Positions 18,450 through 33,749 of a stretch of 64,000 bases of DNA are shown in pieces (the first letter of the stretch is position 1; each line of letters begins with the position of its first letter). The DNA is from Bacilli bacterium (lineage in GTDB: Bacteria; Bacillota_I; Bacilli_A; RFN20; CAG-449), in the NCBI GenBank assembly GCA_900755065.1, contig CAAEFC010000040.1, positions 23,812 to 87,811 of the forward strand, read 5' to 3'. The notes beneath the pieces are model-generated. The model worked only from the letters and a program-made list of their open reading frames with translations, searched no databases and was not told the origin of the DNA. A program made the position numbers and the translations under genes.

Positions 18450-19916
18450 ATGGGCATAATTGGGCATAATAAAGTATTATGCGGTTTTGATATCGTACGA
18501 GCAAGAAAACGCAATAAAGCTCAAGAATCAATCGACTGCCCTAACGAGCTTAAGGCATTGCTACTCAAAGAATTTTCGTATGGGATACGTATCGATTCCG
18601 CAATCGATATTATAAAACTCAAAAATTCTGCCGAGAGGTTCAAGGTAACTTTGCCTGAAAATGAGGAATTGTTAAAAGCGCAAATTTTGGCTGGTGGCAT
18701 ATCGTTCGAAGGCAAAATATACTTTTATTCTGACAAAGTTTATTACGGGCTAATACAAAAAATAAAAGATGTTTTTGCGGAAGGTTTTTCCGTAGTTTAT
18801 TACGAGGAATTATTCAGTAAGAACTTTGATTGGTTTGACGAAAATCATATATCGTCATGGGAATTGCTTCGGGAATTTCTTGATGGAAAAGGCGGCGATT
18901 TGTTCATCAGTAAAAATTTTTTGCGTAAAGGGACAGAGCGAATCAATGAAGCCGACGCTGTGGAAAAGGAATTAGAGAGCGTTTGGGGCGATAAACCGAT
19001 TCATACATACGACGAAATGTACGAACTCTTGCCGTATATCCCGAGCGAAAAGATAAAGCTTTATCTTTCGTATTGTCAAAAATTCGTATGGTCAACATAC
19101 GAAACATTTGCGTGGATCGATAAGGTGATTATTTCTGAAGAGGAGAAGAAAGCTATTATCGATTATGCTGAAAGCGAGTGTAAACTGAATGGACATGCGT
19201 CTATTGCAAATGTACCGCTCGGTAATATCGAGGAAGAGAACTATCAAATTTCTATTACGGCTATCTATGATGCCGTGTACCGCATTGTACTAAGTGACAG
19301 ATTTTCTATAAACGGCAAGATTCTTACAAAAAACGATGCGGCAATAGATGCGCTTACACTTGCAAAATCTTATTGCGCCGATAAAGAGGAATGTACATTT
19401 AAGAGCCTTAACGATTATGTTATTTCCATAAATGGAGCGGAAAACAGACAAATAACTTTCCGCGCCGCATACGAGCAAATGATAAGAATCGACAAGCAGA
19501 ATTTTGTGGCTGATTACAAAGTGTATTTTGAAGTCGATACTATTGATGAGCTTTTTAAGCAAATGATAAAAGGCGATTTTGCATCTATAAAGAGCATTGC
19601 CACATTTATTATGTTCCCCGATTGTGGATATGCATGGACATATTATTTGTTGGAGAGTTTTTGTTATCGGTTTAGTAAGAAGTATCGTTTGGAAGTGATA
19701 GGTTTCAATGATAAGAATGCAGGCATTATTGCAAAAAAAGAAGTGAACTTATCATACGTTGATATGCTTGCCGTTACTGCGTTACGTTCGGGATTGGAAT
19801 TAAGGACAGATATTATCGGCGAATATTTATACAATAACGGTTATATTGCAAGAAAAAGGGAAACTATCCTCAATAATACCTTAGAAAGAGCAAAACAAAT
19901 GAAGGGGGGCAGATAA
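18450..19916 (+). CDS. Hypothetical protein, first gene of the BREX-like operon
   Basis: 488 aa with no motif I can recognise. Its stop is directly abutted by the brxP start (TAAATG). Confidence 0.7.
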   Translation: MGIIGHNKVLCGFDIVRARKRNKAQESIDCPNELKALLLKEFSYGIRIDSAIDIIKLKNSAERFKVTLPENEELLKAQILAGGISFEGKIYFYSDKVYYGLIQKIKDVFAEGFSVVYYEELFSKNFDWFDENHISSWELLREFLDGKGGDLFISKNFLRKGTERINEADAVEKELESVWGDKPIHTYDEMYELLPYIPSEKIKLYLSYCQKFVWSTYETFAWIDKVIISEEEKKAIIDYAESECKLNGHASIANVPLGNIEEENYQISITAIYDAVYRIVLSDRFSINGKILTKNDAAIDALTLAKSYCADKEECTFKSLNDYVISINGAENRQITFRAAYEQMIRIDKQNFVADYKVYFEVDTIDELFKQMIKGDFASIKSIATFIMFPDCGYAWTYYLLESFCYRFSKKYRLEVIGFNDKNAGIIAKKEVNLSYVDMLAVTALRSGLELRTDIIGEYLYNNGYIARKRETILNNTLERAKQMKGGR

Positions 19917-22238
19917 ATGTATTCGTATACTTTTGACGAAGAAACGGGTGGCATTTTGCTCAATTCCTCGCCTACGGGTTTTTCCAAGGAACCGCGCCCG
20001 GTGTACGCAAGTGAAATGGACTTACTTGGATTTTCCGTGTTTTGGGAATATGAACATCAAAACGATACACCTTATATGTGGGTGGAATCCAACGCATATT
20101 GGTATAAGGGACAAATAATTGCACGGATCAAGGGTGGAGATTTATATCATGCGCCGATTTTGACGCCCGTAACCGACGATAATGGCAAAGTAGTATTTAG
20201 TAGGGATTCGGGCGCACTGCAACCTATGAATATCCCACTCATGTGCAAGAAAAACAAAGAACTTCTTACTACATTGGAAAAGACAACTGTGCAAAAAATC
20301 GTGCGTGTGTACGAAAAATACAAGGATAAGCTCGATATTTTTCATGTGGCATTTTCGGGTGGCAAAGATAGTTCAGTATTGCTTGATTTGGTAAAAAAAG
20401 CATTACCAAAAGATAGTTTTGTCGTCATTTTTGGCGATACTGGAATGGAGTTCCCAGATACTTACAAAGCGGTGGATTACGCCGAATCGCAGTGCGAAAA
20501 GGAGGATCCACCCATAGCATTTTACAGAGCGCGTTCTCACTTTGATCCGGAAGAATCGTGGAAATTATTCGGCCCGCCTGCAAGAGTATTGCGGTGGTGT
20601 TGCAGTGTGCATAAAAGTACGCCACAGACTCTTAAAATGAGGGAGATTACAGGCAAAAATAATTATACAGGGCTGGACTTTGTTGGAGTGCGTCGAGAAG
20701 AAAGCTTGGCGAGAAGTACTTATGAATATGAGGACTTCGGAAAAAAGCAGAAGGGGCAATACAGCCACAATCCTATATTAGAGTGGACTTCGGCAGAAGT
20801 TTGGATGTATATTTTTGCAAACAAAATATATATCAACGAAGCTTATAAAAAAGGCAATTCCCGTGCTGGATGTTTGTTTTGTCCTATGGGTGGTGGACGG
20901 AATGATTATATTCAATATCAATCATATCCATATGAAGTAGGTAAATTTATTAGCTTAATAAAAACCATGAATGCGCGAAATAAGGGAGATAATGTTGCCT
21001 TATGCTCCTATGTGTCAAATGGCGGATGGAATGCTCGAAAAAACGGAAGAGATCTAACTATTAGTGAAGAGCATTATCGCGAAGAGATTAAAGATGATAA
21101 ATTGATAATCTCTGTTTCTAATCCACATACAGATTGGCAAGAATGGATAAAAACAGTAGGCCCACTGCCTTTTGAATATCAGATTGTTAATCTCAATAAT
21201 GGATATAAAGTCATTTGCGATGTTGCAATAATAAAGGATTTTCCAAAAGAAGTTAAACGATTTAAGCAGGTATTTAAAAAGTCCGCTCATTGCCTTTCAT
21301 GCAGAGTATGCGAAACTAATTGCGGGAATGGATGCATATCTTTTAATGAAAAATTATCAATAAATAATTGTATTCACTGCGGGCGTTGCCATGAAATTGA
21401 TGATGGCTGTCTTGCATATCATTCTTTAAAATTGTCCGGAGGTGGAACTATGAAAACAGGCAGTATTAATTCTTTTGCAAACCATGCGCCGAAAAACGAT
21501 TGGATACAGGTTTTTTTTGATTTGGGCGATGAGTTTTGGGATGAAAATCCTTTAGGATTAGGGCCGAACCAATTACCAATGTTTAAGCGTTTTTTAAGAG
21601 AGTGCGGAATTATTGATTCTAAGAATAAAACCTCCGAATTATTCATTATTCTAAAAAAATTAGGTTGGCGAGATAATACTACTTGGGGAATAATGACCGT
21701 AAATTTGTCGTATAATCCACAATTTCGTTGGTATATACAAAATATGGACATCGACATATTTTATGAACGATATAGAATAAGCGATATGCTTGTATCGTAC
21801 GGCGTTAGCAAAGATGATGCAACATCAATTATTAATGCATTTAAAAGATTTACGGACCTTCCATTGGGAACCGAACTTAATTGGGGTTATACTGAAGAGA
21901 AAAGAAGACAAATTGATACATTGTGTAGAACTAAGTGTATAATCTCCGACAATCGAGTTGTCCTATATGCGCTATATAAATTCGTAGAAAAGTGCAATTT
22001 GGAAGATAGGGAATTCCACTTATCGTATCTTTTAGATGAGAAAGTAGAACGCGATGGAGTAAGCCCGGCGAGAATGTTCGGTATTTATGACGAAGAAGAG
22101 TGGAAATCCATACTATTGGGGCTGGCTTCTCGTTATCCCGAATTTATCAATGCAACATTTACTAATGACTTAAAAACCATTTCACTCAAAGATAAATCGT
22201 CTGTGGACGTGTTGGAACTATTTAGGGAGGAACTTTAA
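19917..22238 (+). CDS. brxP: BREX type 4 BrxP-like protein: PAPS reductase/PP-loop ATP pyrophosphatase domain plus ferredoxin-like Cys cluster
   Basis: PP-loop FHVAFSGGKDSSVLLDL. RWCCSVHK motif as in the PAPS reductase/DndC family. CLFCPMGGG. Double CxxCxxCxxxC-type cluster CLSCRVCETNCGNGC...CIHCGRCHEIDDGC. 773 aa. Confidence 0.8.
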   Translation: MYSYTFDEETGGILLNSSPTGFSKEPRPVYASEMDLLGFSVFWEYEHQNDTPYMWVESNAYWYKGQIIARIKGGDLYHAPILTPVTDDNGKVVFSRDSGALQPMNIPLMCKKNKELLTTLEKTTVQKIVRVYEKYKDKLDIFHVAFSGGKDSSVLLDLVKKALPKDSFVVIFGDTGMEFPDTYKAVDYAESQCEKEDPPIAFYRARSHFDPEESWKLFGPPARVLRWCCSVHKSTPQTLKMREITGKNNYTGLDFVGVRREESLARSTYEYEDFGKKQKGQYSHNPILEWTSAEVWMYIFANKIYINEAYKKGNSRAGCLFCPMGGGRNDYIQYQSYPYEVGKFISLIKTMNARNKGDNVALCSYVSNGGWNARKNGRDLTISEEHYREEIKDDKLIISVSNPHTDWQEWIKTVGPLPFEYQIVNLNNGYKVICDVAIIKDFPKEVKRFKQVFKKSAHCLSCRVCETNCGNGCISFNEKLSINNCIHCGRCHEIDDGCLAYHSLKLSGGGTMKTGSINSFANHAPKNDWIQVFFDLGDEFWDENPLGLGPNQLPMFKRFLRECGIIDSKNKTSELFIILKKLGWRDNTTWGIMTVNLSYNPQFRWYIQNMDIDIFYERYRISDMLVSYGVSKDDATSIINAFKRFTDLPLGTELNWGYTEEKRRQIDTLCRTKCIISDNRVVLYALYKFVEKCNLEDREFHLSYLLDEKVERDGVSPARMFGIYDEEEWKSILLGLASRYPEFINATFTNDLKTISLKDKSSVDVLELFREEL

Positions 22239-22240
22239 TC

Positions 22241-25200
22241 ATGAATGCTAGAAAATATTGCGAGTATTTCAATATCAACGAAACCTACTTTCCGTGTATC
22301 GATGAGTCGGCTATAAATGCCGGCGTGGATTGGCAGGCTACCTATCCGCACGAAACGTTTATCAAATTATTGAAAACCACCGAGAATATGTTAGGCGGCG
22401 CAACCAAACGTTCAGTTTGGATTCACGGAGCATACGGCACGGGTAAAAGTCAGTGCGCTTACGCACTCAAAAAAATATTGGAATCTCCAGAAGGTGAAGT
22501 GCGTTCGTATTGGGATAAGTTCGAGCCGTTAAAACGAGAGATGCCGCTTTTGGAAAAACTAATTGGGCATAAAGAAAAAGGCATCGTCGCGGCATATCGC
22601 TACGCCTCGGGAAGTATCAATTCACCGCAACAGTTATTTTTGGCGATACAAGAAAGCATCAAGCAATCTCTGGAAGAGCAAGGCGTGGAATATAAAGGAG
22701 AACGTACGCTGAAAGAGAGCGTCATTGCTTGGCTCTCTCAACCCGCACAAAATGCATTTGTAAACACGTTACTCAACAAACCTGAATGGGAATCTTTGTT
22801 TGCACAGTCCACTGCCGATGAAATTATCAATTCCTTGCGTAAAAATGGTGACGTATCGTCACTTATGGATAATGTTTTCCGTATGGCGGCAAAAGAGGGC
22901 ATTACCGCACTTTCGCTGGATGCGGAAAAATTGCGTGAGTGGATAAAAGACATTATTGACACTAACAGCACAAAGATTGTTTTGGTTTGGGATGAATTCA
23001 GCGACTTTTTCCGTTTGAACAAAAATTCGTTGGGCGAGTTTCAAAAAATTGTCTCTATTTGCGAAGAAGCACCATTCTATCTTATTGTTGTAACTCACCC
23101 CATTACTTCTATTAGCAGTAACGATGATTCTTGGAAAATCGTTCAACAGCGTTTCGACAGAGTGGAAATAGAATTGCCCGAAAATATTGCGTTTGAACTT
23201 ATAGGACATGCTTTCAGCGTAAAGGATTCTGCCAAAGATGAATGGAACACAATGACGAGCGGCTTAGATGCGACTATTCCCAATTCTACTACGGCAGTTA
23301 TGAAAGCGGCGAATATTAAGGATAGGTCGGTTATCAAACGCATACTGCCCATTCAACCGATTGCCGCGCTGGTACTCAAAAAAATTGCAAATGCTTTTCA
23401 GTCGAACCAAAGAAGCATGTTCGACTTTATCAAGACAAAACACGATACCGACGTCAAGGCTTTCCAGTGGTTTATTGGGGAGTATAGCCCAATGGACGAA
23501 CAGCCACTTTTGACGGTGGATATGCTTTGGGACTTCTTTTATGTAAAAGGTAGGGAATATCTTACGTCCGATATAAAATTGATATTGGATACTTTTTCAC
23601 AACAAACTTCGCTTACCGAGAAAGAAAAGAAAGTTCTCAAAACGGTTCTTATTATGCAGGCAATAGACCTGCGTCTGGGCGGTACGCTCCCCATTATGAA
23701 ACCTACTGATCAAAATCTCGACTATGCGTTTGAGGGAATAGCGGAATATGAAACTTCTGCGAAACATATAGCAAAAGGGTTAGAAAATAAAGGGATTCTC
23801 ATAAGCACGCCGATATGTGACGGAAAGAGAGCATTTGGCGCGGCTGTTTTAGCAGGTGATAATACCAAAATAGAAGCGTCTAAAAAGGAGATTCGGAAAA
23901 AGAGCACGACAAGCAATCTAGTATCAGAAGGGGATTTGCTTCCTACGGCGATTTCTCTTACACCGGCATTAAAGCTTCGTTATGCAAAAGATGATAGCGG
24001 GGCACTACCTATTGTTACGGTTTCCGACTTTACCAAGATAATGGATACGCTCAAAAATAAGGACGCGGCATGGCGTTTCTATTCGGTTCTTGCGGTAGCA
24101 AAGGATGAGGACGAGGCGCAGAATTTCCGCACGTTAATCAAAAGAACGATTGCAAACGAGGAATATAAAAATATAATCGTTATCGACGCGCTTTCTTCGC
24201 CGCTCGGGTTGGAATTGTTCGAGCAGTACGTCGATTATTCCGCAATGGCAATGTATTACCAAGGTAATAACAATCAGCAAGCCAAAGAAAATTCCAACAA
24301 GGCAAAGAGCATTTTGAATAGAACGTGGAAGGACAAAATCCACGATGGGCAATTCTATGTGTATACAAACGCCAATCAAGATGGCGAAAGAGCAATCGGT
24401 GCAAACAACGTTCATGTTATTTTGCAGACAATAGTGCTCAAAAAATTTGGCCACATTTTCGATTTTACGAAAGGTCTGACCGAAACGCAATTAAAACTTA
24501 CCACACCGAAGAAGGTTTCTCGTTATGGTATGGGTGGATTGGATATCAACGGTTTGATCAGAGGTTGCGAAAAAAGCGTTCTCGGTTTGGTGTGGGGGAG
24601 AGAGAAGTATTGGGAAGTTTCCGAACTGCAAACTGCGCATATTGTAGTTATCAAACAAGCGGTTGACAAGCTGATTGAAGATGCATTTGCCGAGCGCGGG
24701 CAAATTTCCATTGGTGAAGTTTACGATTATTTACAAGACGAATTCGGATTTTCGCCTTGTAATTTGTCGGCATTTGTGACGGGGTTTTTATTAAAAGAAT
24801 ACAATTCCGATCCGTATCGTTGTATCGATTCTGAAGGCTATCCCGATACAATGACCCCCGATAAGTTGGCCGAGATGATAGGTAACTATATCGGGAAATC
24901 ACCAAAGCCTACGTATATCGTTAAGATGACTCCTTCGGAAAAGGTATTCTACGAAGCGACGGCAAAAGCATGGACGATACCTGCAACCTCATGCTCTTCT
25001 CCGAGTCAAGTGGCAACGCAACTTGAAAGCAAAATGCAGTCTTTCGGGTATCCTACGTGGAGTTTGGAGTATGTTGATGACATTGGTATTTACGATATCG
25101 TAAAAAAATACATAGCTTTAGTGCAAAGCGACGGCAAAGGTACGCACAATATAGCAATTGAAATCGGCAACATTTTTATGAACAGGCCTACGCGTATCGA

Positions 25201-26380
25201 CGGATTAAAAATGTTGTTTACCGCAGATAAGTACAAAGAGGGTATGACGGTATTCCTTAAGCAATATAGAGAAGGGAAGCTTATACAGCTTGCCGAAGAA
25301 ATCGGTGCAAAAGATATCGTTTTGTCGGATGTCCGTAAACTTTTCAGCGTGAAGCATTCGGCTATGTGGATTGAGGATACGGGAAAGACCGAAATCGATA
25401 AACTTATCGTAGAGTATGACGTTATCAAGCAAACGAATGGCATTTTGAACGTGGTTTGCAACACAAAAGAAAAGGCATTTAACGCTTGGCGCGAAGTTTT
25501 GAAATTCGTAGGTTTCTCTTGCGACGCATTAAAATCAAAAAGACCGAATTTAGATAAATTGCTTTCGTATCTTCTAAAAATTATGAATAGAGAAGATATG
25601 TTGCCTGAGATGATGAAAGAGTTTCTTTTTGAACTCAATGCGCGCAGAAGCGAGATTTGCGAAATTCTCAATAACAAGCTTGCCGTGTTTGAAGAGCTAT
25701 ATGGCGTATATTTAGAGGATTTTTCCATTACAGAGAAGGAAGAAATCCAGAATTCCATCAATAAGGAAATTTTTACCGATACGGCAACTACTAGCAATCA
25801 AACCGTAAAACAAGTGGCGGAGACATACCGCAAGAATCAAATCAAAACGCAACTCTTCAATCAGTGGAAAGAGTTGACGAGAACAAAAAATCCGAGAGAA
25901 TGGTCGAGTAGATACGGTACGCCGATTTTGTGTTTGGTGGATGCCGCATTATATGCTGAAGCAAAACTTGCATTTACAACATTAAACAGTACTTATCAAT
26001 CCGATTCTGATATCCATAAGGCATTGGAATTTTTGACGAAGTCGAAGGCGTTTTTCGATATGATACAAGATGCGTCTAAGCGCGACGAAGCTTTTATGCG
26101 GGTGGTTGACGGCTCTTATACCGTACTTCTTTCTAATCCTAATGTTGTAAGGCAGGCGTTGGAAAGCCTTCCCGTAGATGTGTATGACTGGTATGACAGT
26201 CCTGTTGTGAAGCAAAAAATTCAGCAAATGGCTGATGCGGAATATTATGCTGGCGGTAGCGATAAGGCGGTAGAACTTATAAGAAAAATGAGTGACTCCG
26301 AACTGAAAAAACATCTTATAGAACTTGTGCAAAAAGATACAGAACTTGGGATGAAGATAATTTCGAATGAGGATAAGTAA
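22241..26380 (+). CDS. brxC: BREX BrxC/PglY-like large P-loop ATPase
   Basis: 1379 aa. Walker A IHGAYGTGKSQ near the N-terminus, Walker B IVLVWDEFSDF. Size and position (after brxP, before pglZ) fit the BrxC/DUF499 family. Confidence 0.8.
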   Translation: MNARKYCEYFNINETYFPCIDESAINAGVDWQATYPHETFIKLLKTTENMLGGATKRSVWIHGAYGTGKSQCAYALKKILESPEGEVRSYWDKFEPLKREMPLLEKLIGHKEKGIVAAYRYASGSINSPQQLFLAIQESIKQSLEEQGVEYKGERTLKESVIAWLSQPAQNAFVNTLLNKPEWESLFAQSTADEIINSLRKNGDVSSLMDNVFRMAAKEGITALSLDAEKLREWIKDIIDTNSTKIVLVWDEFSDFFRLNKNSLGEFQKIVSICEEAPFYLIVVTHPITSISSNDDSWKIVQQRFDRVEIELPENIAFELIGHAFSVKDSAKDEWNTMTSGLDATIPNSTTAVMKAANIKDRSVIKRILPIQPIAALVLKKIANAFQSNQRSMFDFIKTKHDTDVKAFQWFIGEYSPMDEQPLLTVDMLWDFFYVKGREYLTSDIKLILDTFSQQTSLTEKEKKVLKTVLIMQAIDLRLGGTLPIMKPTDQNLDYAFEGIAEYETSAKHIAKGLENKGILISTPICDGKRAFGAAVLAGDNTKIEASKKEIRKKSTTSNLVSEGDLLPTAISLTPALKLRYAKDDSGALPIVTVSDFTKIMDTLKNKDAAWRFYSVLAVAKDEDEAQNFRTLIKRTIANEEYKNIIVIDALSSPLGLELFEQYVDYSAMAMYYQGNNNQQAKENSNKAKSILNRTWKDKIHDGQFYVYTNANQDGERAIGANNVHVILQTIVLKKFGHIFDFTKGLTETQLKLTTPKKVSRYGMGGLDINGLIRGCEKSVLGLVWGREKYWEVSELQTAHIVVIKQAVDKLIEDAFAERGQISIGEVYDYLQDEFGFSPCNLSAFVTGFLLKEYNSDPYRCIDSEGYPDTMTPDKLAEMIGNYIGKSPKPTYIVKMTPSEKVFYEATAKAWTIPATSCSSPSQVATQLESKMQSFGYPTWSLEYVDDIGIYDIVKKYIALVQSDGKGTHNIAIEIGNIFMNRPTRIDGLKMLFTADKYKEGMTVFLKQYREGKLIQLAEEIGAKDIVLSDVRKLFSVKHSAMWIEDTGKTEIDKLIVEYDVIKQTNGILNVVCNTKEKAFNAWREVLKFVGFSCDALKSKRPNLDKLLSYLLKIMNREDMLPEMMKEFLFELNARRSEICEILNNKLAVFEELYGVYLEDFSITEKEEIQNSINKEIFTDTATTSNQTVKQVAETYRKNQIKTQLFNQWKELTRTKNPREWSSRYGTPILCLVDAALYAEAKLAFTTLNSTYQSDSDIHKALEFLTKSKAFFDMIQDASKRDEAFMRVVDGSYTVLLSNPNVVRQALESLPVDVYDWYDSPVVKQKIQQMADAEYYAGGSDKAVELIRKMSDSELKKHLIELVQKDTELGMKIISNEDK

Positions 26381-28637
26381 CATGCTCGACGTAAGTGTAA
26401 GAAATTATTTATCGAATGCAAAAGGTGCGCCATTCTTTTTTGTTGTCGGAGATGGCGGATATATCGCTATTTTAGATGAACTGAAACGAAATGGTGTAAG
26501 CGTTATTCGTATAAGCGATTTTTGCCATAAACCCGATAAGTTTCCCAATCTCGACGATATGGTGGACAATTTCCGCATGGGCGATGTGGATTACAAAACG
26601 AATAGATTTGTAGTAGTGGGATTGGGTGAGTATCTTGCTTTGCGCGGAGAAGCGGAAGCCTTGAAAGTATTGCGCGAATTAAAAAGCACTACGCTGGGGA
26701 CGGCAAGGGTTATACTGCTTTTGCGTTGTGTCGGCGTTCAGGTTGAGGAAATTGTAAGAGAAGATATCCGCGCAAAGTCACGTGTTTACATAAGCAATTC
26801 AATTGATAATAATATAACTGTTGTAAACATAGGAATCGAACAAAGCGAAGGACTTGTAAAAGAAGTCGGGGTGCAGTCGCTATTGTATGCTATGGAAAAC
26901 GGCGAAACAGGTAAGTTGTTTGTTAAAACCAACCTTATATTGGATAATTCCATGTTACCTGTAAATAAAATAGACGACGCCTATTTCGCCATTAAAACTT
27001 TGGTACAAGGATTTTCTTTGCCGAAGTCTTTGGGCGATGATGAGCAATGGAATAGGCTGATGGGCGATTTGAAAAAATATAGCTACTCGTTCACTAATTT
27101 TTTTGCAGATAAAGATTTTCATTTGGATTCGGATGCGGACTTTATTGAAAAAGCGTTTGGGCTTACTTATAGTAAATGGATTTTCTTCATATATTTGAAG
27201 CTCAATTATACTAAATTAAGTAATCCGTATCTGCGCTTTGTTATTGAAAGAGTATCTGATTTCAAAGAACTGAAAACAGAAACGCTGAATGCGATAATCT
27301 CCGTTGAACATACGGACAAAGATTTTTATTCTCTTTATGCAGGACGGAAAAAGCTATTAAAAGATATCACCGAGTCCGATATCGCTATCTTTATTCGGCA
27401 AAACGAAATATATCCAGATGAAAGCATATATAAATTAACGGACAATACGTCCACGGAACGAAAAGCGATCATTCGTTGGGTATCACAGCATGGGCTTATT
27501 AAAGAGTTAGAGCAAATATATCCCGCATTATTTTTGTATTTGCAAAAGTATACATTTTCATGTGGCAAGAATGCTGATAAGTTTACCGATTATTTCGAAC
27601 GTTATAAACAACAAAAAATTTCCAATAGCCTTGATTATGGATTTGAAGAATGTGCAAAAAAGAGTTCAAGCCTATATGCGGGATTGCAAACACGTGCCAA
27701 TGCTCTTATGAATATAGGAGATAAAAAATCGACTTTTTTGATTTGGGTTGACGCTCTCGGTGTAGAATATTTAGCTTATATACAAGCTCTTGCCAAACAA
27801 AAAGGTCTTTCTATAAACATCGAAATTGCGAGAAGCGATTTACCGACGATAACAAGTATAAATAGAGGGTTCTACGACGAGTGGGGAGAAAATAAAGATA
27901 AGGAACAACATCTTGACGATATCAAACATCATGATTGCGGTGGATTCGATTATCGCAAAGATAAATTACCTGTTTATCTTGCAAGCGAATTGGACGTTAT
28001 AGAAAATGTTTTGAATTATGCCGCGACAGAACTTGCCTTTCGCAAGTATAAGCGAGTTGTTATTGCAAGCGACCACGGAGCATCCAGGCTTGCTGTTTTA
28101 GGTCAGCATGGCGAAAAATACGAAACAGATACGAAAGGCGAACATTCGGGACGTTGTTGCAAATATTTCGACGATTATGATATATCCAATTCAGTTGCAG
28201 AAAACGGATATATCGTTTTAACGGATTATGGAAGATTCAAAGGAAGTCGCGAAGCCAACGTAGAAGTGCATGGCGGATGTACTTTGGAAGAAACAGTAGT
28301 TCCCATTATCACACTTTCGTTGAAGAATCAGACAGATGTTCAAATTATTATCATGAAACCCGAGGAACTTGTTGTGGATAGAAAGAACGGCGTTCAAATT
28401 TCCGTTTATATTTCTAATGTGGAATATTCCAAGGCGGTTCACATGGAAATCAAAAAGAAAGTTTATGATGGCGAACAAACAGACAATACCCATTACACGT
28501 TTGCCTTAAATGATATTAAGCGTTCGGGAGAGTATGAGGCGAGCATATTCGATGGCTCAAATTTAATCGGGCGTGTAAAATTGCATATAAAAGGTGCAGT
28601 CGGTTCAACAAAATCCGATTTTGATGAGCTTTTCTAA
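26367..28637 (+). CDS. pglZ: BREX PglZ-domain protein (alkaline phosphatase superfamily)
   Basis: LIWVDALGVEYLAY...LPTITSINR and VVIASDHGASRL motifs of the PglZ fold. Overlaps brxC by 14 nt; an alternative ATG at 26382 has a GAGGA RBS. Confidence 0.85.
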   Translation: MRISNMLDVSVRNYLSNAKGAPFFFVVGDGGYIAILDELKRNGVSVIRISDFCHKPDKFPNLDDMVDNFRMGDVDYKTNRFVVVGLGEYLALRGEAEALKVLRELKSTTLGTARVILLLRCVGVQVEEIVREDIRAKSRVYISNSIDNNITVVNIGIEQSEGLVKEVGVQSLLYAMENGETGKLFVKTNLILDNSMLPVNKIDDAYFAIKTLVQGFSLPKSLGDDEQWNRLMGDLKKYSYSFTNFFADKDFHLDSDADFIEKAFGLTYSKWIFFIYLKLNYTKLSNPYLRFVIERVSDFKELKTETLNAIISVEHTDKDFYSLYAGRKKLLKDITESDIAIFIRQNEIYPDESIYKLTDNTSTERKAIIRWVSQHGLIKELEQIYPALFLYLQKYTFSCGKNADKFTDYFERYKQQKISNSLDYGFEECAKKSSSLYAGLQTRANALMNIGDKKSTFLIWVDALGVEYLAYIQALAKQKGLSINIEIARSDLPTITSINRGFYDEWGENKDKEQHLDDIKHHDCGGFDYRKDKLPVYLASELDVIENVLNYAATELAFRKYKRVVIASDHGASRLAVLGQHGEKYETDTKGEHSGRCCKYFDDYDISNSVAENGYIVLTDYGRFKGSREANVEVHGGCTLEETVVPIITLSLKNQTDVQIIIMKPEELVVDRKNGVQISVYISNVEYSKAVHMEIKKKVYDGEQTDNTHYTFALNDIKRSGEYEASIFDGSNLIGRVKLHIKGAVGSTKSDFDELF

Positions 28638-28649
28638 GGAGATGAGAGT

Positions 28650-30140
28650 ATGGATTATTTCGATAAATTAAGAGACTGTTTTGATGAAATGGTCGTATAC
28701 AAGGACCTAAAAAAGACAAATTTCTTTTCGGCTTTAAGTTTGCCGGCATTTATGCGCGATTGGTTGCTCAGAAAGTTCGAAGATGAAGAAGGAAATTTTG
28801 ATAAAGACGAATTGGCGCGTTTTGTAAAGAAATTCATTCCACGAAAAGAAGATTGGAATGCCATTAAAAACCGTGTTATCGTTGAGGGGCAAAAGACCAA
28901 ATTTTTAGCCAAAGTCTCCGTTAATATAGACATTCGCACTGGGGAAGTTTCGTTTGCGTTGCCTGAGTTTGGATTGGGTTTCAAGGAAACCATTATCGAA
29001 AGCGATGTATGGGATGAGTGCAAAGAGGACCTTGTAAAAGGTAGAGATGTATGGGGAATGATAGAGCTTGGCTATCGTGCGCCCGATGCATTTGACATTG
29101 AATTCGAATACGAAAAGAGTAAATCAAAAGCTCGAGCTTCAAAAGATGGAAAAATTAAATTGCTTTCTTTTAGAAATTTCTGCCCATATGAAATTGATAT
29201 TGAACAATATAAAGAGGCTCGTAAGGAATTTACTACGGAAGAGTGGATGAATGTTATCTTGGGAGCGGTGGATTACAATGCAGATGGCTACAAGACGGAA
29301 GAAGAAAAACTTACCATGTTGACTCGTCTGCTGCCGTTTGTTGAAAAGCGTCTTAATTTAATAGAACTTGCACCTAAGGGTACGGGTAAATCCTATCTAT
29401 TTGGCAATGTAAGTAGGTATGGTTGGCTTTCCAGCGGCGGAATTATGAGTCGTGCAAAAATGTTTTACGATCAAAGTAAGCGACGCGAAGGTTTGCTTTC
29501 GGGTAGTGATTTTGTTACATTAGATGAAGTGCAAACAATATCATTTACAGATACCGATGAAATGCGAGCCGCATTAAAGGGCTATTTGGAACAGGGAACT
29601 TTTACTGTAGGCGATTATAAAGGTGTGGCGGAAGCCGGCGTTGTATTGTGTGGTAACATCAGAAAAGAAATCATGGACGCGGACGGGTATAGCAATATGT
29701 TTGAGGAGCTGCCTGTTGTGTTTCATGAGTCTGCTTTGATTGAGCGTTTTCACGGTTTTATAAAAGGCTGGAATATACCGAGAATGAACGATGATTTGAA
29801 AGTGGCGGGTTGGGCATTGAATTCGGAGTATTTCTGTTCGATTATTCATGAGCTTAGGAGCGATTTGACATATCGTACAGTGGTGGACGATTTGATCGTA
29901 GTCCCAGATTCTGCCGACACTAGAGATACGGAAGCGGTAAAGAGAATTGCTACGGCATATTTGAAATTATTGTTTCCGCATGTGCAAAATTCAAAAGATA
30001 TATCCGCATATGATTTCAAGAGATATTGTTTATCGAGAGCTATAAAAATGCGCGATACGATTCGGTATCAGTTGGGCCTGCTTGATAAAGAATATGCGGG
30101 GAAAGATTTGCCAGCATTTATGGTTTCTAAGGATGATTAA
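28650..30140 (+). CDS. brxL: BREX BrxL-like AAA+ ATPase (Lon-related family, short ~500-aa form)
   Basis: BrxL-type N-terminus (VVYKDLKKT...LPAFMRDWLLRKF...), Walker A ELAPKGTGKSYLF, Walker B SDFVTLDEVQ. 496 aa. Confidence 0.75.
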   Translation: MDYFDKLRDCFDEMVVYKDLKKTNFFSALSLPAFMRDWLLRKFEDEEGNFDKDELARFVKKFIPRKEDWNAIKNRVIVEGQKTKFLAKVSVNIDIRTGEVSFALPEFGLGFKETIIESDVWDECKEDLVKGRDVWGMIELGYRAPDAFDIEFEYEKSKSKARASKDGKIKLLSFRNFCPYEIDIEQYKEARKEFTTEEWMNVILGAVDYNADGYKTEEEKLTMLTRLLPFVEKRLNLIELAPKGTGKSYLFGNVSRYGWLSSGGIMSRAKMFYDQSKRREGLLSGSDFVTLDEVQTISFTDTDEMRAALKGYLEQGTFTVGDYKGVAEAGVVLCGNIRKEIMDADGYSNMFEELPVVFHESALIERFHGFIKGWNIPRMNDDLKVAGWALNSEYFCSIIHELRSDLTYRTVVDDLIVVPDSADTRDTEAVKRIATAYLKLLFPHVQNSKDISAYDFKRYCLSRAIKMRDTIRYQLGLLDKEYAGKDLPAFMVSKDD

Positions 30141-30142
30141 GT

Positions 30143-30346
30143 ATGAACACTGAAAAGAAATTTTGCTATGTTTGCAGGAAAGAATTGTCAAAAAACGAAA
30201 TAGGATTAACAAAAAAACTGATTGACAAAAAAGCGAATAAGTTTTATTGTTTGACATGTCTTGCGGAATATTTAGAAGTAACAGAAGAGGAGTTGCTTGC
30301 AAAAATCGAAGAGTTCAAAGAAGAGGGCTGTACGCTGTTTAAGTAA
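30143..30346 (+). CDS. Small zinc-ribbon protein (67 aa)
   Basis: Two CxxC pairs (CYVCRKE ... CLTCLAE). Starts 2 nt after the brxL stop and ends 2 nt before the desulfurase start. Confidence 0.6.
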   Translation: MNTEKKFCYVCRKELSKNEIGLTKKLIDKKANKFYCLTCLAEYLEVTEEELLAKIEEFKEEGCTLFK

Positions 30347-30348
30347 TT

Positions 30349-31491
30349 ATGAAGCAAATGATTTACGCCGATAATGCCGCTACAACAAGGCTTGATAGCG
30401 ACGCATATAAAGCAATGTCAAAGATATTGCAAAATGAATATGGCAACCCTTCTCAGCCATATTCCTTTTCTCGTACCGCAAAAAGGTTGATTGCACAAGC
30501 AAGGGAGACGATTGCAGAGTGTATCAATGCATCGCCTGATGAAATATTTTTCACTTCGGGTGGAACAGAAGGCGATAATTGGGGATTGGAAGGAGTGGCA
30601 TTTTCTAATCCCTATAAGAAGATTATCACTTCACAAATCGAACATCATGCTATTTTGAGAACTTGCGAGTTTTTGGAAAAACAGAATTTTCCTATCGCTT
30701 ATCTTCCGGTTACAAAAGACGGGACAGTTTTGCCCGATACATTAAGTGCGCAGATATCTGATACAACTTCGCTAGTTTCCATAATGCTTGCCAATAATGA
30801 AGTCGGAACCATTCAGCCGATAAAAGAGCTTGCCAAAATTGCGCATTCTCACGGAGCATTGTTTCATACCGATGCGGTACAAGCAGTAGGACACATTCCC
30901 GTTGATGTTAAAGGACTAGGTGTGGATATGCTAACTGCTTCTGCGCATAAGTTTAATGGACCGAAAGGAATTGGTTTTCTTTATATAAAGCATGGAATTC
31001 ATATTCTACCATATATGCATGGCGGAGCGCAAGAGAAGGGGCTTCGCGCTGGTACGGAAAATGTTGCGTCCATTGTCGGAATGAGTGTTGCATTAAAGAA
31101 TAATATAAAGAATCAAATTAATAATGACAATTTATATCGTGAAGAGCAATTCTTTTTATCTCGATTGGAACAATGCGGAATTATTCTCGGTAGGGATTTT
31201 TTATGGAATGGGAGTAATGAATTTGGTAAACATTTGCCGGGACTGATTAGTTTGTCTTTCAGAGGGAAAGACGGCGAATCGATTATGCATAGAATGGACT
31301 TAAAAGGTATTGCAATTTCTACCGGGGCGGCATGTGATTCCATTAATACACAGGTTTCGCATGTTATTAAGGCAATACATGTTCCAAATGAGTTTGCGTT
31401 AGGAACAATTCGTATATCTTTTGGAAACAATACAACGCATGACGAAGTCGAGGCAATAGCATATGCATTGAGCGATATTGTGTCAAAATGA
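30349..31491 (+). CDS. Cysteine desulfurase (NifS/IscS class, PLP-dependent)
   Basis: HTDAVQAVGH, PLP-lysine motif SAHKFNGPKGIG and catalytic cysteine loop STGAACDS. 380 aa. AT-rich like the rest of the island. Confidence 0.88.
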   Translation: MKQMIYADNAATTRLDSDAYKAMSKILQNEYGNPSQPYSFSRTAKRLIAQARETIAECINASPDEIFFTSGGTEGDNWGLEGVAFSNPYKKIITSQIEHHAILRTCEFLEKQNFPIAYLPVTKDGTVLPDTLSAQISDTTSLVSIMLANNEVGTIQPIKELAKIAHSHGALFHTDAVQAVGHIPVDVKGLGVDMLTASAHKFNGPKGIGFLYIKHGIHILPYMHGGAQEKGLRAGTENVASIVGMSVALKNNIKNQINNDNLYREEQFFLSRLEQCGIILGRDFLWNGSNEFGKHLPGLISLSFRGKDGESIMHRMDLKGIAISTGAACDSINTQVSHVIKAIHVPNEFALGTIRISFGNNTTHDEVEAIAYALSDIVSK

Positions 31492-31492
31492 G

Positions 31493-32566
31493 ATGGTAAA
31501 TATGAACGAATTGGCAAAAACATCATATACGGAAGTTCTTCATATTATCAAAGCGGCGAGAGAAAGTGCATTTAGCAAAGTAAATGAAGAACTTATTTTG
31601 ATGTATCGGGATATCGGTAAATATATCAGCGAGAAGTCGAAAGACGCCAAGTACGGTGAAAAATATGTAGACGGGCTTGCGGATTTCTTTGCAAGGGAAT
31701 ACCCAGAATTAAAGGGCTTTACACGACGCGGACTGTATCGTATGCGATAGTTTTACAAACTTTATAAAGATGACGAAAAAGTGTCACCGCTGGTGACAAA
31801 ATTGAGTTGGTCGAATCATTTGAAGATTATGTCGGCTTGTAAATCGCAAGAGGAACGCTATTTCTATATGGCACTCTGCGTCAAAGAAAGATATAGCGCG
31901 CGTGAGCTTGCGCGGCAAATCGATAGCGGATATTACGAGCGAAATATACTATCGCAAAAGCCGACTACGCTTGCAATAGCGGAAGCTAAGGAAAAAGCTG
32001 GTAATATCTTTTTGACACCTACACGCTTGATTTTCTCGATTTGTCCGAAACGGTTTTGGAACAAGATCTGCAAAAATCGATTATCCGCAATTTGAAAAAC
32101 TTTGTGTTTGAAGTCTGCAAAGACTTTACGTTTATAGGCGAAAGAATATAGGCTGCAAGTCAGCAATCACGATTATTATGTGGACTTACTTATCTATCAC
32201 AGAGGACTGTCGTGCTTGGTTGCGTTTGAGTTGAAGATAGGCGAATTTAAGCCGGAATATGTCGGCAAAAGAGGACTTTATTTGAAAGCATTGGATAGGG
32301 AGATAAAAAAGGAAAACGAAAATCCGAGCGTTGGTATTATCCTTTACGCCAAGAAAGACGATGAAGTTGTCGAATTTGCTTTAAGCCGTAGTTTATCGCC
32401 AACAACGGTATCCGAATATAAATTGAAACTGATTGATAAGCAATTGTTACAAAACAAATTAAAAGAGTATGTCCTACTTGTAGACAGCCAAGACAACATA
32501 TATGGATTAATCTATAAACAATATCTGCCGAAAAGAAAAAACGAAAGCATAGAAAACATACAATAA
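31493..32566 (+). pseudogene. Decayed DUF1016/YhcG-type PDDEXK nuclease gene
   Basis: Family-typical N-terminus (...YGEKYVDGLADFFAREYPELKGFTRRGLYRMR) is interrupted by an in-frame TAG at 31748-31750, where the family has Gln (MRQFY). It continues FYKLY...LSWSNHLKIM. There are at least two frameshifts (about 32010 and about 32140) before the PDDEXK core VDLLIYHRGLSCLVAFELKIGEFKPEYVGK. Confidence 0.7.
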
Positions 32567-32920
32567 ACGATTTCTACCACGGCAATAAACTCTATAAGGA
32601 AAAGTACGGTTTTATCGAAATAGGTAATCCCAAATATTACAAGAAAGACAACGACTATTTTGTTGTGCCTGAATTCGTGTTGCGTAAATCTACGCCGAAG
32701 GATTGCATCATAGCGTGTAACGGAGAGCAAATAGATATGTTCGCGCTTGCGGAAGGGGGACATTTCCGAACGCGCGATGCAGATGATCCTAAAAAGTTTA
32801 TGAGAATAAAAGATTATTGAAATTATACATACTTCTGGAGATAACAGCAAGTAGCTCAAAAATAAGTATAGGCATATCGGCGAGCTGTGCGAAGAATACG
32901 GTTAGGGTTTGGTATTGGAT

Positions 32921-33229
32921 ATGTTTTATGAAACGGAAAATAAAGCGTGTTTTCGAGATTGGAATTGGGAAGAGTATAAGTTCAAGAACGACGGGAGTTG
33001 GCACGAGTTAGATGACGTAGTGGATTATAACATCGGACGCAGATATTTTCGGCAAACATATTTGGAAAGTGTCAATGCGGATGAGGTTTATGGCGTGAAG
33101 AATGCGAGATACTTTAATAAAGGCAATCCACAGATACACTTGTTCGATCCGAGAACAGGGAAAACTATATCACGTTTACTTATTGGGGAACTATTACATT
33201 TGACTTGGAATGCCGACGAAGATAGATAA
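32921..33229 (+). CDS. Hypothetical protein
   Basis: About 102-aa ORF from the ATG at 32921 (tracked ORF starts at a TTG at 32909). No recognisable domain. Followed by a hairpin (CGTACGA/TCGTGCG) plus a T-run at about 33296-33325. Confidence 0.4.
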   Translation: MFYETENKACFRDWNWEEYKFKNDGSWHELDDVVDYNIGRRYFRQTYLESVNADEVYGVKNARYFNKGNPQIHLFDPRTGKTISRLLIGELLHLTWNADEDR

Positions 33230-33505
33230 TACGAATTGCAGCTGATAGACAAATTTACAAGCAAATAACAGATATAAAATATGCAAGCCAGAGGGCCGTA
33301 CGATTGATTTCGTGCGTTTTTTTGCTTTTAAATTTTTTTCAATAAGAAGTGGTGTCTATGTGCAATGGTAGACTTGTAGGTGATCTTAAAATTCTTGTAA
33401 CAAGAAACAGATAACGGAGGAATAATGGAACAAACACTATTAAAACAATTCACGTTTATCAAATACTATTGCATAAAAAAAGAAATATTATCTGATTTAT
33501 GGTAA

Positions 33506-33693
33506 CGAAAAGATGTAGCAAAGTTTATTGCGATAGTCAAGGGCTATACCGAAGTAATCGAGCTTACATCCGAAATCCCGAACAGCTTTATAGTCAAGAC
33601 TTTCATAGGTGTGCCCCCAGAGTAGATGGAAAGCGTAAACAAGAAGTGAAGATTATTTATAAGCTTGTAGGTGCGATGAAGATACCGCAGTAA
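33506..33693 (+). pseudogene. C-terminal remnant (DUF4368-like) of a large serine recombinase, frameshifted
   Basis: Frame 2 reads RKDVAKFIAIVKGYTEVIELTSEIPNSFIVKTFIGVPPE*. Frame 1 continues RVDGKRKQEVKIIYKLVGAMKIPQ*. The frames join at a C5 run (33614-33618). The pattern resembles the ...FL.LVRKYTD..ELT...L..FI.KI.VH....DGKR.Q.I.I.Y.FVG tail of TndX/TnpX-type recombinases. No catalytic domain lies upstream. Confidence 0.45.
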
Positions 33694-33706
33694 CAAATAA
33701 GTGTGT

Positions 33707-33749
33707 AATTGCCTTGGGGGATAAAATAAAAAACTCCCCAAGGGCAATT
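33707..33749. repeat. 13-bp perfect inverted repeat just after the recombinase remnant
   Basis: AATTGCCTTGGGG, 16-nt spacer, CCCCAAGGGCAATT. No T-run follows, so it is not a classical terminator. Confidence 0.6.

What the first reader, a model, noticed from the sequence alone, without database searches (positions are those of the whole stretch)
30143..31491. Island-encoded cysteine desulfurase plus 67-aa zinc-ribbon protein coupled to brxL: a DndA/DndC-like sulfur relay?
Seen: a NifS/IscS-class desulfurase (SAHK PLP lysine, STGAACDS catalytic Cys loop) starts 2 nt after a small 2x CxxC protein, which itself starts 2 nt after the brxL stop. Both share the AT-rich composition of the island, not that of the backbone. 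Established: in Dnd phosphorothioation a cysteine desulfurase (DndA or IscS) supplies persulfide sulfur to DndC, a PAPS-reductase-family PP-loop Fe-S protein. BrxP belongs to the same domain family. Inference: BrxP plus this desulfurase could install a sulfur-containing DNA mark (phosphorothioate or a thio-base) as the self mark in place of PglX methylation. The zinc-ribbon protein could be a DndE-like or sulfur-carrier accessory.
Basis: partly seen in the sequence, partly recalled or inferred. Interest (0 to 1): 0.78.

Follow-up and report, generated by a model that had tools for sequence, protein, structure and literature searches.

The report
Sulfur-donor genes of type-4 BREX
The two genes are the last members of a type-4 BREX anti-phage operon, a system already published as marking host DNA with phosphorothioate sulfur and as often carrying its own cysteine desulfurase and a small zinc-finger protein, so the finding is real but known.

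Summary
A 67-aa CxxC…CxxC protein (30143-30346) and a 380-aa NifS/IscS/DndA-class cysteine desulfurase (30349-31491; PLP Lys201, catalytic Cys329) each start 2 nt after the previous stop. They close a tightly packed low-GC operon: orf488-brxP-brxC-pglZ-brxL-ZnR-desulfurase, a type-4 BREX system.

The main inference is already published. Yuan et al. (Nat Commun 2026) showed that type-4 BREX makes phosphorothioate DNA, needing brxP, brxC and a cysteine desulfurase. [quoted passage not shown]

My own scan agrees and adds detail. Of 69 BrxL-anchored loci from many phyla, 66 have the zinc protein and 53 the desulfurase. The desulfurase never occurs without the zinc protein, while 13 loci keep the zinc protein alone.

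The DndE-like or sulfur-carrier guess is not supported. The zinc protein matches no DndE or carrier model. Relatives with the same five conserved cysteines lie beside alpha-galactosidase, PBP or PEPCK genes with no sulfur genes nearby. Its role is unresolved.

Novelty: already known. Interest is low.

The parts
18450..19916 (+). orf488, an unnamed first gene of the operon; its stop directly abuts the brxP ATG
   Evidence: No Pfam, NCBIfam, PADLOC, PHROG or PDB-sequence hit. Found directly upstream of brxP in 58 of 61 BrxL-anchored loci at 27-67% identity. The single-sequence AF2 model was uninformative (pLDDT 35).
19917..22238 (+). brxP: PP-loop PAPS-reductase-family enzyme (FSGGKDS), a Cys-rich ferredoxin-like region and a C-terminal DUF4007/SspB-like part; the predicted sulfur-inserting enzyme
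   Evidence: PADLOC BrxP 806 bits, with weaker SspD (42 bits) and DndC (32 bits) hits. Pfam PAPS_reduct 107 bits. Sequence.
22241..26380 (+). brxC/pglY ATPase (SspC-like)
   Evidence: PADLOC BrxC 1531 bits; SspC 62 bits.
26367..28637 (+). type-4 pglZ (brxZ)
   Evidence: NCBIfam BREX_PglZ_4 498 bits (cutoff 140). PADLOC PglZ 651 bits. Pfam DUF7864/7863/7862.
28650..30140 (+). brxL (short type-4 form: BrxL_N + ATPase domain)
   Evidence: TIGR02688 403 bits (cutoff 329). PADLOC BrxL 739 bits.
30143..30346 (+). ZnR: 67-aa zinc-knuckle plus three-helix protein with five conserved Cys (8, 11, 36, 39, 63) and an invariant C-terminal GC(T)LF tail; role unresolved
   Evidence: Sequence. Family size: 1093 clusters at 90% identity and 430 at 50%. 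Conservation. AF2 pLDDT 76 with a low-confidence tail. Present directly after brxL in 66 of 69 loci.
30349..31491 (+). Group-I (NifS/IscS/DndA/SspA-class) PLP-dependent cysteine desulfurase, the dedicated sulfur donor of the operon
   Evidence: Aminotran_5 267 bits; PADLOC DndA 415 and SspA 414 bits; NCBIfam NifS 421, DndA 309 and IscS 310 bits, all below their equivalog cutoffs. PDB relatives. H99, D175, Q178, S198, H200, K201, C329 and R355 are invariant in 42 operon-linked copies. Present in 53 of 69 loci.
31478..32566 (+). Adjacent decayed DUF1016/YhcG PD-(D/E)XK nuclease gene, split into three ORF fragments; a possible former backup effector, not part of the sulfur module
   Evidence: The fragments match phrog_22762 positions 3-82, 97-163 and 230-325. 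Pfam DUF1016_N and YhcG_C appear on the same fragments in sister contigs.

Best explanation
The two ORFs are the 3' end of a seven-gene type-4 BREX operon (orf488-brxP-brxC-pglZ-brxL-ZnR-desulfurase), carried on a low-GC acquired island in a Firmicutes-like chromosome.

**Desulfurase.** It is a group-I PLP enzyme. It is predicted to take sulfur from L-cysteine as a persulfide on Cys329 and pass it to BrxP. BrxP is a PP-loop ATP pyrophosphatase with an Fe-S-like cysteine cluster and an SspB-like DNA-binding part. [quoted passage not shown] This phosphorothioate is the self mark that PglX methylation provides in other BREX types. PglZ and BrxL serve the exclusion side. The operon-encoded desulfurase is an optional dedicated supply: related operons that lack it presumably use housekeeping IscS or SufS.

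**Zinc protein.** It is a near-universal small subunit of this BREX-4 clade. Most likely it is a zinc-stabilised, HTH-like binding or regulatory module rather than a catalytic sulfur carrier, but its role is not established.

**Shown here:** gene identities, active-site residues, operon packing and conserved linkage.
**Shown by others on homologous systems:** phosphorothioate formation needing brxP, brxC and a desulfurase.
**Inferred:** all of this for the present locus, and any role of the zinc protein.
For: - **Type-4 BREX identity.** Profile hits for all four core genes are above curated cutoffs where cutoffs exist.
- **Desulfurase.** Aminotran_5 267 bits and PADLOC DndA/SspA about 415 bits. 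The SAHK lysine and STGAAC cysteine align to solved NifS/IscS structures. The catalytic set is invariant in 42 operon-linked copies.
- **Operon packing.** Intergenic gaps are 0, 2, -14, 12, 2 and 2 nt.
- **Linkage.** All 10 places shown for two close ZnR homologues have brxP-brxC-pglZ-brxL-ZnR-desulfurase. Of 69 BrxL-anchored genome loci from Bacillota, Bacteroidota, Spirochaetota, Synergistota, Desulfobacterota, Planctomycetota, Verrucomicrobiota and methanogenic archaea, 66 have ZnR and 53 a full desulfurase.
- **Decay.** Two loci keep only desulfurase remnants (L046, L073), which fits dispensability.
- **Literature.** Phosphorothioate synthesis by type-4 BREX with brxP+brxC plus host SufS (PMC12914056). 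The desulfurase as a 'sixth core component' with a co-occurring zinc-finger protein (PMC12839542).
- **Foreign composition.** GC 0.39 against 0.48; GC3 about 0.35 against 0.50-0.67.
Against: - Nothing has been measured on this organism's DNA.
- The desulfurase scores below the NCBIfam equivalog cutoffs for DndA (309 against 480), NifS (421 against 531) and IscS (310 against 548). By sequence it is closer to NifS/IscS structures (up to 290 bits) than to solved SspA (187 bits) or DndA (175 bits). Its assignment to DNA modification therefore rests on gene context.
- I could not check whether the genome has another desulfurase, so a dual housekeeping role is not excluded.
- For the zinc protein no significant sequence or fold match exists: the best Foldseek E-value is about 1 against PDB and 0.6 against BFVD. 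The regulatory/binding assignment is therefore weak.
Confidence: 0.85

Rival explanations
1. The zinc protein is a sulfur-relay adaptor or carrier. Its invariant Cys63, in a flexible GCxLF tail, accepts the persulfide from a desulfurase (operon-encoded or housekeeping) and delivers it to BrxP. This is a sharpened form of the first reader's idea.
For: - Five Cys are at least 96% conserved in 98 diverse representatives, and the C-terminal G62-C63-x-L65-F66 is almost invariant.
- The tail (residues 61-67) is the lowest-confidence part of the AF2 model, and 65-67 fall below pLDDT 50.
- The desulfurase never occurs without ZnR: 53 of 53.
- One protein (P0355) fuses a BrxP-like PAPS-reductase N-terminus to a ZnR C-terminus.
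- The partial correlation of ZnR and desulfurase distances is 0.31.
Against: - ZnR is retained in 13 loci with no desulfurase and no substitute sulfur gene downstream.
- Relatives at 37-52% identity keep all five Cys and the tail. They lie after GH27 alpha-galactosidase (8 loci), PBP (2) or PEPCK (1) genes, with no BREX or desulfurase gene within 8 kb.
- The fusion is a singleton on one 3.7-kb metagenome contig.
- There is no similarity to TusA, ThiS, MoaD or rhodanese.
- Published reconstitution gave phosphorothioate with brxP, mcrA and brxC in a host supplying SufS (PMC12914056).
Confidence: 0.15
2. The zinc protein is a small zinc-stabilised HTH-like regulator or DNA-binding factor. It would control operon expression or help the complex engage DNA, and would not depend on sulfur chemistry.
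For: - There is a sub-threshold Pfam NirdL-like_HTH hit at residues 40-62 (E 3e-4; 20.7 bits against a cutoff of 27).
- The AF2 model is a zinc knuckle plus three helices.
- All the top (non-significant) Foldseek hits are HTH/wHTH domains: BirA N-terminus, DeoR, sigma region 4.
- JGI labels some members 'biotin operon repressor', and PMC12839542 notes similarity to HTH regulators.
- Family members occur in unrelated operons, as expected of a general binding module.
Against: - No match is statistically significant.
- Its median identity across loci (71%) is second only to BrxL (75%) and well above BrxP, BrxC and PglZ (44-56%). That is unusual for an operon-specific regulator.
- The invariant fifth Cys and tail have no explanation in this model.
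Confidence: 0.35
3. The zinc protein is a structural partner of BrxL or BrxC (the exclusion machinery), and the desulfurase merely sits downstream of it.
For: - ZnR always directly follows brxL, in 66 of 69 loci.
- ZnR and BrxL are the two most conserved proteins of the operon.
- ZnR distances correlate best with BrxC (r 0.74, partial 0.35) and BrxL (r 0.68).
- In L011 the BrxC-PglZ-BrxL-ZnR block is 70-94% identical to the window, while BrxP (65%) and the desulfirase (58%) are not closer than in other loci.
Against: - Adjacency alone would produce these co-inheritance patterns.
- The partial correlation with BrxL is 0.03.
- Pairs of loci are not independent, so the correlations carry no p-value.
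- No fusion to BrxL or BrxC was seen among the 150 representatives listed.
Confidence: 0.2
4. The desulfurase is a housekeeping NifS/IscS for Fe-S cluster or tRNA thiolation that only happens to lie next to the BREX operon.
For: - Its best NCBIfam hit is NifS (421 bits) and its closest solved structures are NifS/IscS-type.
- No other desulfurase lies in the window.
Against: - It sits in the same position in 53 of 69 BrxL-anchored loci across phyla.
- It shares the foreign GC3 of the operon: 0.33 against 0.50-0.67.
- It starts 2 nt after ZnR.
- No IscU/NifU/SufBCD-type ORF lies between the desulfurase and the backbone genes in this window or in its near-identical sister contigs.
- It scores below every housekeeping equivalog cutoff.
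Confidence: 0.05

Closest known systems
Type-4 BREX (brxP-brxC-pglZ-brxL) as a phosphorothioate system: Yuan et al., Nat Commun 2026 (PMC12914056); comparative survey in Nucleic Acids Res 2026, gkag035 (PMC12839542)
   Same: - Same four core genes in the same order, with no PglX methyltransferase.
- BrxP combines an SspD-like PAPS reductase with a DUF4007/SspB-like part, and BrxC is SspC-like.
- A DndA-like desulfurase and a small zinc-finger protein lie at the 3' end, exactly as the survey describes for 56% of taxa.
   Different: - The experimentally studied Bacteroides salyersiae operon carries mcrA and relies on host SufS. This locus has its own desulfurase and no mcrA.
- In the BrxL clade sampled here the zinc protein is more universal (96%) than the desulfurase (77%). 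The survey only says it 'often co-occurs' with the desulfurase.
- A conserved upstream orf488 is not mentioned in the parts of the survey I read.
SspABCD phosphorothioation module (SspA desulfurase, SspB, SspC ATPase, SspD PAPS reductase)
   Same: - One-to-one correspondence of functions: desulfurase = SspA, BrxP = SspD+SspB fusion, BrxC = SspC.
- PADLOC cross-hits support this: SspA 414, SspD 42 and SspC 62 bits.
   Different: - It is coupled to PglZ/BrxL rather than SspE/SspFGH.
- BrxP is one fused protein.
- ZnR and orf488 are not among the SspABCD components as the literature read here describes them (Ssp loci were not scanned).
- The solved SspA is only a moderate match (187 bits).
DndA/IscS-DndC sulfur transfer in DndABCDE
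   Same: A group-I cysteine desulfurase supplies persulfide sulfur to a PAPS-reductase-family PP-loop protein. The desulfurase is frequently missing from the operon and replaced by a housekeeping enzyme.
   Different: - BrxP hits DndC only weakly (32 bits). According to PMC12839542 it lacks the DndC-specific cysteine dyad and has extra alpha+beta and Cys-rich regions.
- There are no DndB, DndD or DndE homologues, and ZnR is not DndE-like.
- The desulfurase is below the DndA equivalog cutoff (309 against 480).

Membership tests
Type-4 BREX | brxP (PAPS-reductase-domain protein) present in place of the pglX methyltransferase | tested here: met
   PADLOC BrxP 806 bits over the full length; Pfam PAPS_reduct 107 bits. 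None of the seven operon proteins (18450-31491) hits a methyltransferase family.
Type-4 BREX | brxC/pglY ATPase, type-4 pglZ and brxL adjacent on the same strand | tested here: met
   BrxC 1531 bits. BREX_PglZ_4 498 bits against a cutoff of 140. BrxL TIGR02688 403 bits against a cutoff of 329. Gaps between genes are -14 to 12 nt.
Type-4 BREX | Phosphorothioate modification of host DNA and phage exclusion | not testable with these tools
   Shown only for homologous systems, in PMC12914056.
Group-I cysteine desulfurase (NifS/IscS/DndA/SspA class) | Class-V aminotransferase fold with a PLP-binding lysine in an S-x-H-K motif | tested here: met
   Aminotran_5 267 bits (cutoff 21.5). SAHK with K201 aligns to solved NifS/IscS structures and is invariant in 42 operon-linked copies.
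Group-I cysteine desulfurase (NifS/IscS/DndA/SspA class) | Catalytic cysteine in the mobile S-(S/T)-G-(S/A)-A-C loop | tested here: met
   STGAAC with C329, invariant in 42 copies.
DndA (NCBIfam equivalog TIGR03235) | Score at or above the curated equivalog cutoff | tested here: not met
   309 bits against a cutoff of 480. It is also below the NifS (421 against 531) and IscS (310 against 548) cutoffs. It is therefore filed as DndA/SspA-like by function and context, not as an equivalog.
DndA/SspA (functional definition) | Operonic linkage to a phosphorothioation PAPS-reductase gene, conserved across genomes | tested here: met
   Present in 53 of 69 BrxL-anchored loci and in all 10 close loci shown.
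DndE | Sequence similarity of the 67-aa protein to DndE | tested here: not met
   No PADLOC family hit at E<=0.001, and no DndE or related family in Pfam at E<=1.
Known sulfur carriers (TusA, ThiS/MoaD, rhodanese) | Sequence or fold similarity of the 67-aa protein | tested here: not met
   No such family in Pfam at E<=1. None among the 50 listed Foldseek hits against PDB.
HTH-type transcription regulators | Significant match of the 67-aa protein to an HTH family or fold | tested here: inconclusive
   NirdL-like_HTH scores 20.7 bits, below the cutoff of 27. The Foldseek top hits are HTH/wHTH domains, but with E>=1.

The most novel reading that the evidence does not exclude
The 67-aa five-cysteine protein is a true core subunit of this BREX-4 clade, more universal than the desulfurase. 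It would act as an adaptor whose invariant C-terminal GCxLF tail docks any cysteine desulfurase, operon-encoded or housekeeping, onto BrxP. The conserved unannotated orf488 would be a further unrecognised component. The BREX-4 modification machine would then have two more parts than the published brxP+brxC minimum.
Probability: 0.12. Interest if true: 0.55.

Novelty: already known. Interest (0 to 1): 0.22.

Why it matters
It matters little as a discovery. Phosphorothioation by type-4 BREX was published in January 2026, with a 2024 preprint. The operon-encoded desulfurase and its zinc-finger companion were described the same month.

Two points may help people working on BREX-4:
- The zinc protein follows brxL in 96% of sampled loci and persists without the desulfurase, so it should be included in reconstitution and deletion experiments.
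- An unannotated 488-aa gene is conserved upstream of brxP.

Both are open leads rather than results.

Tried and rejected
- **Plasmid search.** Megablast of 29500-32000 against plasmids gave no match.
- **PDB sequence search.** The zinc protein gave nothing below E 0.5.
- **Fold search.** Foldseek of its AF2 model against PDB and BFVD gave no hit at E<=0.001.
- **Fusion as a Rosetta stone.** P0355 (PAPS reductase + ZnR) is a singleton on one 3.7-kb contig, so I gave it little weight.
- **Mirror-tree.** Correlations among six operon proteins in 41 loci all fall between 0.56 and 0.93 and the pairs are not independent, so the result is inconclusive.
- **orf488 structure.** The single-sequence AF2 model had pLDDT 35 and is unusable.
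- **Promoter and terminator scan.** Over 17900-34600, promoter-like sites were at the shuffle mean. Terminator-like sites were about 2 sd above it, but none lies on the + strand between the desulfurase stop and 33297. No operon boundaries could be drawn.
- **Empty-site search.** Exact look-ups of the flanking rlmD and FMN-reductase genes returned only island-bearing contigs, or contigs that break at the junction.
- **Organism names.** They are withheld for window proteins. The host is inferred as Firmicutes-like from the rpsF-ssb-rpsR-gdpP-rplI-dnaB synteny.
- **Housekeeping rival.** Considered and rejected as the main explanation (see rivals).
Full report
**1. Observation**

The ORF list shows a run of seven same-strand ORFs with almost no spacing:
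- 18450-19916 (488 aa)
- 19917-22238 (773 aa)
- 22241-26380 (1379 aa)
- 26367-28637 (756 aa)
- 28650-30140 (496 aa)
- 30143-30346 (67 aa)
- 30349-31491 (380 aa)

The raw sequence confirms that each of the last two ATGs lies 2 nt after the preceding stop. The 67-aa product is MNTEKKFCYVCRKELSKNEIGLTKKLIDKKANKFYCLTCLAEYLEVTEEELLAKIEEFKEEGCTLFK. It has C8xxC11 and C36xxC39, plus a fifth cysteine, C63. The 380-aa product carries SAHK (Lys201) and STGAACDS (Cys329).

Composition supports the "island" remark. GC is 0.385 for the finding and 0.388 for 15319-34442, against 0.478-0.480 on either side. GC3 is 0.33-0.38 for the operon genes against 0.50-0.67 for metG, dnaB, nrdD and rlmD.

**2. What the genes are**

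Profile searches identify the four genes upstream of the finding as a type-4 BREX core:
- BrxP: PADLOC 806 bits, Pfam PAPS_reduct 107 bits, weaker SspD and DndC hits.
- BrxC: 1531 bits, with SspC cross-hits.
- PglZ: NCBIfam BREX_PglZ_4 498 bits against a cutoff of 140.
- BrxL: TIGR02688 403 bits against a cutoff of 329.

BrxP shows the FSGGKDS PP-loop and a Cys-rich ferredoxin-like stretch.

The 380-aa protein is a group-I cysteine desulfurase. It scores Aminotran_5 267 bits and PADLOC DndA 415 / SspA 414 bits. In NCBIfam it scores NifS 421, IscS 310 and DndA 309 bits, all below their equivalog cutoffs. Against solved structures it is nearest to NifS/IscS-type enzymes (up to 290 bits), with SspA at 187 bits and DndA at 175 bits. 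It is therefore DndA/SspA-like by class and context, not an equivalog of any named subfamily.

The 67-aa protein has no Pfam, NCBIfam or PADLOC family. Its only PHROG match is a marginal one to a family of unknown function (E 0.0016), and Pfam gives only a sub-threshold NirdL-like HTH match at residues 40-62.

The backbone genes point to a Firmicutes-type chromosome: nrdD, metG and rlmD on the left; FMN reductase, rpsF-ssb-rpsR, gdpP, rplI and dnaB on the right. The window holds no second desulfurase.

**3. Is the linkage conserved?**

Two close homologues of the 67-aa protein were looked up. All ten places shown carry brxP-brxC-pglZ-brxL-ZnR-desulfurase.

For a less biased test I anchored on BrxL. 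An alignment of 13 BrxL sequences retrieved 302 loci from species-representative genomes, of which the best 80 were kept (BrxL 71-94% identical). They come from Bacillota, Bacteroidota, Spirochaetota, Synergistota, Desulfobacterota, Planctomycetota, Verrucomicrobiota, Nitrospirota, Methanoregula, Methanospirillum and others.

I then ran tblastn with the seven window proteins:
- Of 69 loci with at least 1.7 kb downstream of brxL, 66 have the zinc protein directly after brxL and 53 a full-length desulfurase.
- The desulfurase never occurs without the zinc protein.
- 13 loci have the zinc protein alone; two of these (L046, L073) keep desulfurase remnants.
- Three loci have neither.

In the zinc-protein-only loci the next genes are unrelated: AbiE, a KAP NTPase, a Schlafen-like protein, IS200, alaS and so on.

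The desulfurase catalytic set (H99, D175, Q178, S198, H200, K201, C329, R355) is invariant in 42 operon-linked copies.

Median identity to the window proteins is BrxL 75%, ZnR 71%, BrxP 56%, desulfurase 54%, BrxC 52%, PglZ 44% and orf488 35%.

These 80 loci are the BrxL relatives closest to the window, so the percentages describe that clade, not all type-4 BREX.

**4. What is already published**

PMC12914056 (Nat Commun 2026; bioRxiv 2024) reports the following:
- BrxP is effectively an SspD-SspB fusion and BrxC an SspC homologue.
- Strains with type-4 BREX and no dnd or ssp genes contain phosphorothioate dinucleotides.
- Deleting brxC abolishes the dinucleotides.
- Cloning brxP, mcrA and brxC into Bacteroides thetaiotaomicron, which supplies SufS, produces them.

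PMC12839542 (Nucleic Acids Res 2026) reports, from 457 type-4 BREX taxa:
- A cysteine desulfurase "not previously associated with BREX" is present in 255 taxa (56%) and is proposed as a sixth core component resembling DndA.
- Its patchy distribution is attributed to substitution by housekeeping IscS, NifS or SufS.

The zinc protein's function is not addressed beyond that one sentence. I found no other paper on it.

**5. The zinc protein in more detail**

*Family and conservation.* The family is large: 1093 clusters at 90% identity, and 430 clusters at 50% identity with E<=0.001. Almost all members are stand-alone proteins of 63-70 aa. In 98 diverse representatives C8, C11, C36, C39 and C63 are each at least 96% conserved, as are K25, G62 and F66, so the C-terminal GC(T)LF is essentially invariant.

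*Structure.* AlphaFold2 with a 33-sequence alignment gives a moderately confident model (pLDDT 76). It has a short beta hairpin carrying the first CxxC and three helices (17-26, 37-43, 48-60), with the second CxxC at the start of helix 2. The tail (61-67) has low confidence. Foldseek finds nothing significant in PDB or BFVD. The weak top hits are HTH/wHTH domains.

*For a sulfur role:*
- the invariant fifth cysteine in a possibly mobile tail;
- the fact that the desulfurase is never found without this protein;
- one fusion protein, P0355, which joins a BrxP-like PAPS reductase to a C-terminal ZnR.

*Against a sulfur role:*
- the fusion is a singleton on a 3.7-kb contig;
- the protein persists in operons without a desulfurase;
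- a subfamily at 37-52% identity keeps all five cysteines and the tail but has no BREX or desulfurase gene within 8 kb in any of 27 metagenome loci. In the 14 loci whose flanks I examined, it lies directly after a GH27 alpha-galactosidase in eight, a penicillin-binding protein in two and PEPCK in one.

A mirror-tree comparison is inconclusive: ZnR against BrxC r 0.74, BrxL 0.68, PglZ 0.66, desulfurase 0.64 and BrxP 0.56. DndE-likeness was tested and not met.

My reading is that this is a general zinc-stabilised, HTH-like binding module that one subfamily has made a fixed part of BREX-4. Whether it binds DNA, BrxL/BrxC, or BrxP and the desulfurase is open.

**6. Mechanism, with what is shown and what is inferred**

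*Shown here:* gene identities, intact active sites, operon packing, conserved order, foreign composition.

*Shown by others for homologues:* phosphorothioate formation dependent on brxC and conferred by brxP+brxC (cloned with mcrA) with a host desulfurase.

*Inferred for this locus:* the desulfurase forms a Cys329 persulfide from L-cysteine and passes sulfur to BrxP. BrxP with BrxC then installs phosphorothioate as the self mark, and PglZ and BrxL act in exclusion. The desulfurase is a dedicated but dispensable supply.

Confidence is about 0.85 for this overall picture, and far lower for any specific role of the zinc protein.

**7. Novelty and score**

The system, the desulfurase association and the zinc-finger companion are all described, so the finding is "already known".

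The residual points are modest:
- the nested distribution (zinc protein 96%, desulfurase 77%, never the reverse);
- the fifth invariant cysteine;
- the non-BREX relatives;
- a conserved, unannotated orf488 upstream of brxP in 58 of 61 loci.

Interest 0.22.

Noticed in passing
window 18450-19916 (+): This 488-aa ORF has no hit in Pfam, NCBIfam, PADLOC, PHROGs or PDB sequences. Its stop abuts the brxP ATG, and it is found upstream of brxP in 58 of 61 BrxL-anchored loci from many phyla (27-67% identity). It looks like a conserved, unnamed first gene of this BREX-4 clade. In some sister strains it is split (181 + 299 aa in L092/L123).
   Followed up: partly
window 31478-32566 (+): Three consecutive ORF fragments (90, 104 and 128 aa) together match one DUF1016_N/YhcG_C PD-(D/E)XK nuclease (phrog_22762 positions 3-82, 97-163, 230-325). 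This is a decayed nuclease gene right after the desulfurase, fragmented in the sister contigs too.
   Followed up: partly
L096-L122 (metagenome loci), e.g. L097:7983-8186, L105:8010-8186, L119:7992-8177: A subfamily of the zinc protein at 37-52% identity keeps all five Cys and the GCxLF tail but has no BREX or desulfurase gene within 8 kb. In 8 loci it lies directly after a GH27 alpha-galactosidase, in 2 after a penicillin-binding protein and in 1 after PEPCK. The function of this widespread small protein family is unknown.
   Followed up: partly
L095:504-2222 (protein P0355): A single 572-aa protein fuses a BrxP-like PAPS reductase (without DUF4007) to a C-terminal copy of the zinc protein. 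The next gene has a faint radical-SAM hit. Only one 3.7-kb contig carries it.
   Followed up: partly
L011-L090: Type-4 BrxL is unusually conserved: 71-94% identity between Bacillota, Bacteroidota, Spirochaetota, Planctomycetota, Desulfobacterota and methanogenic archaea. BrxC and PglZ from the same loci are only 32-82% and 34-70% identical. This implies wide horizontal spread and strong constraint on BrxL.
   Followed up: no
window 15319-18449: The low-GC island also holds a xylose-isomerase-like TIM-barrel gene (AP_endonuc_2, 16663-17496, +) and a histidine-phosphatase gene (17493-18215, -), plus small unannotated ORFs. No integrase, transposase or tRNA gene marks the island borders, and ARAGORN finds no tRNA in the window.
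   Followed up: no
L124 and L125 (contigs ending about 290 bp after rlmD; the equivalent window position is about 15600): Several metagenome contigs with the identical rlmD gene break just past it, at the left edge of the island. This fits strain-level variation there. No empty-site contig was recovered.
   Followed up: partly
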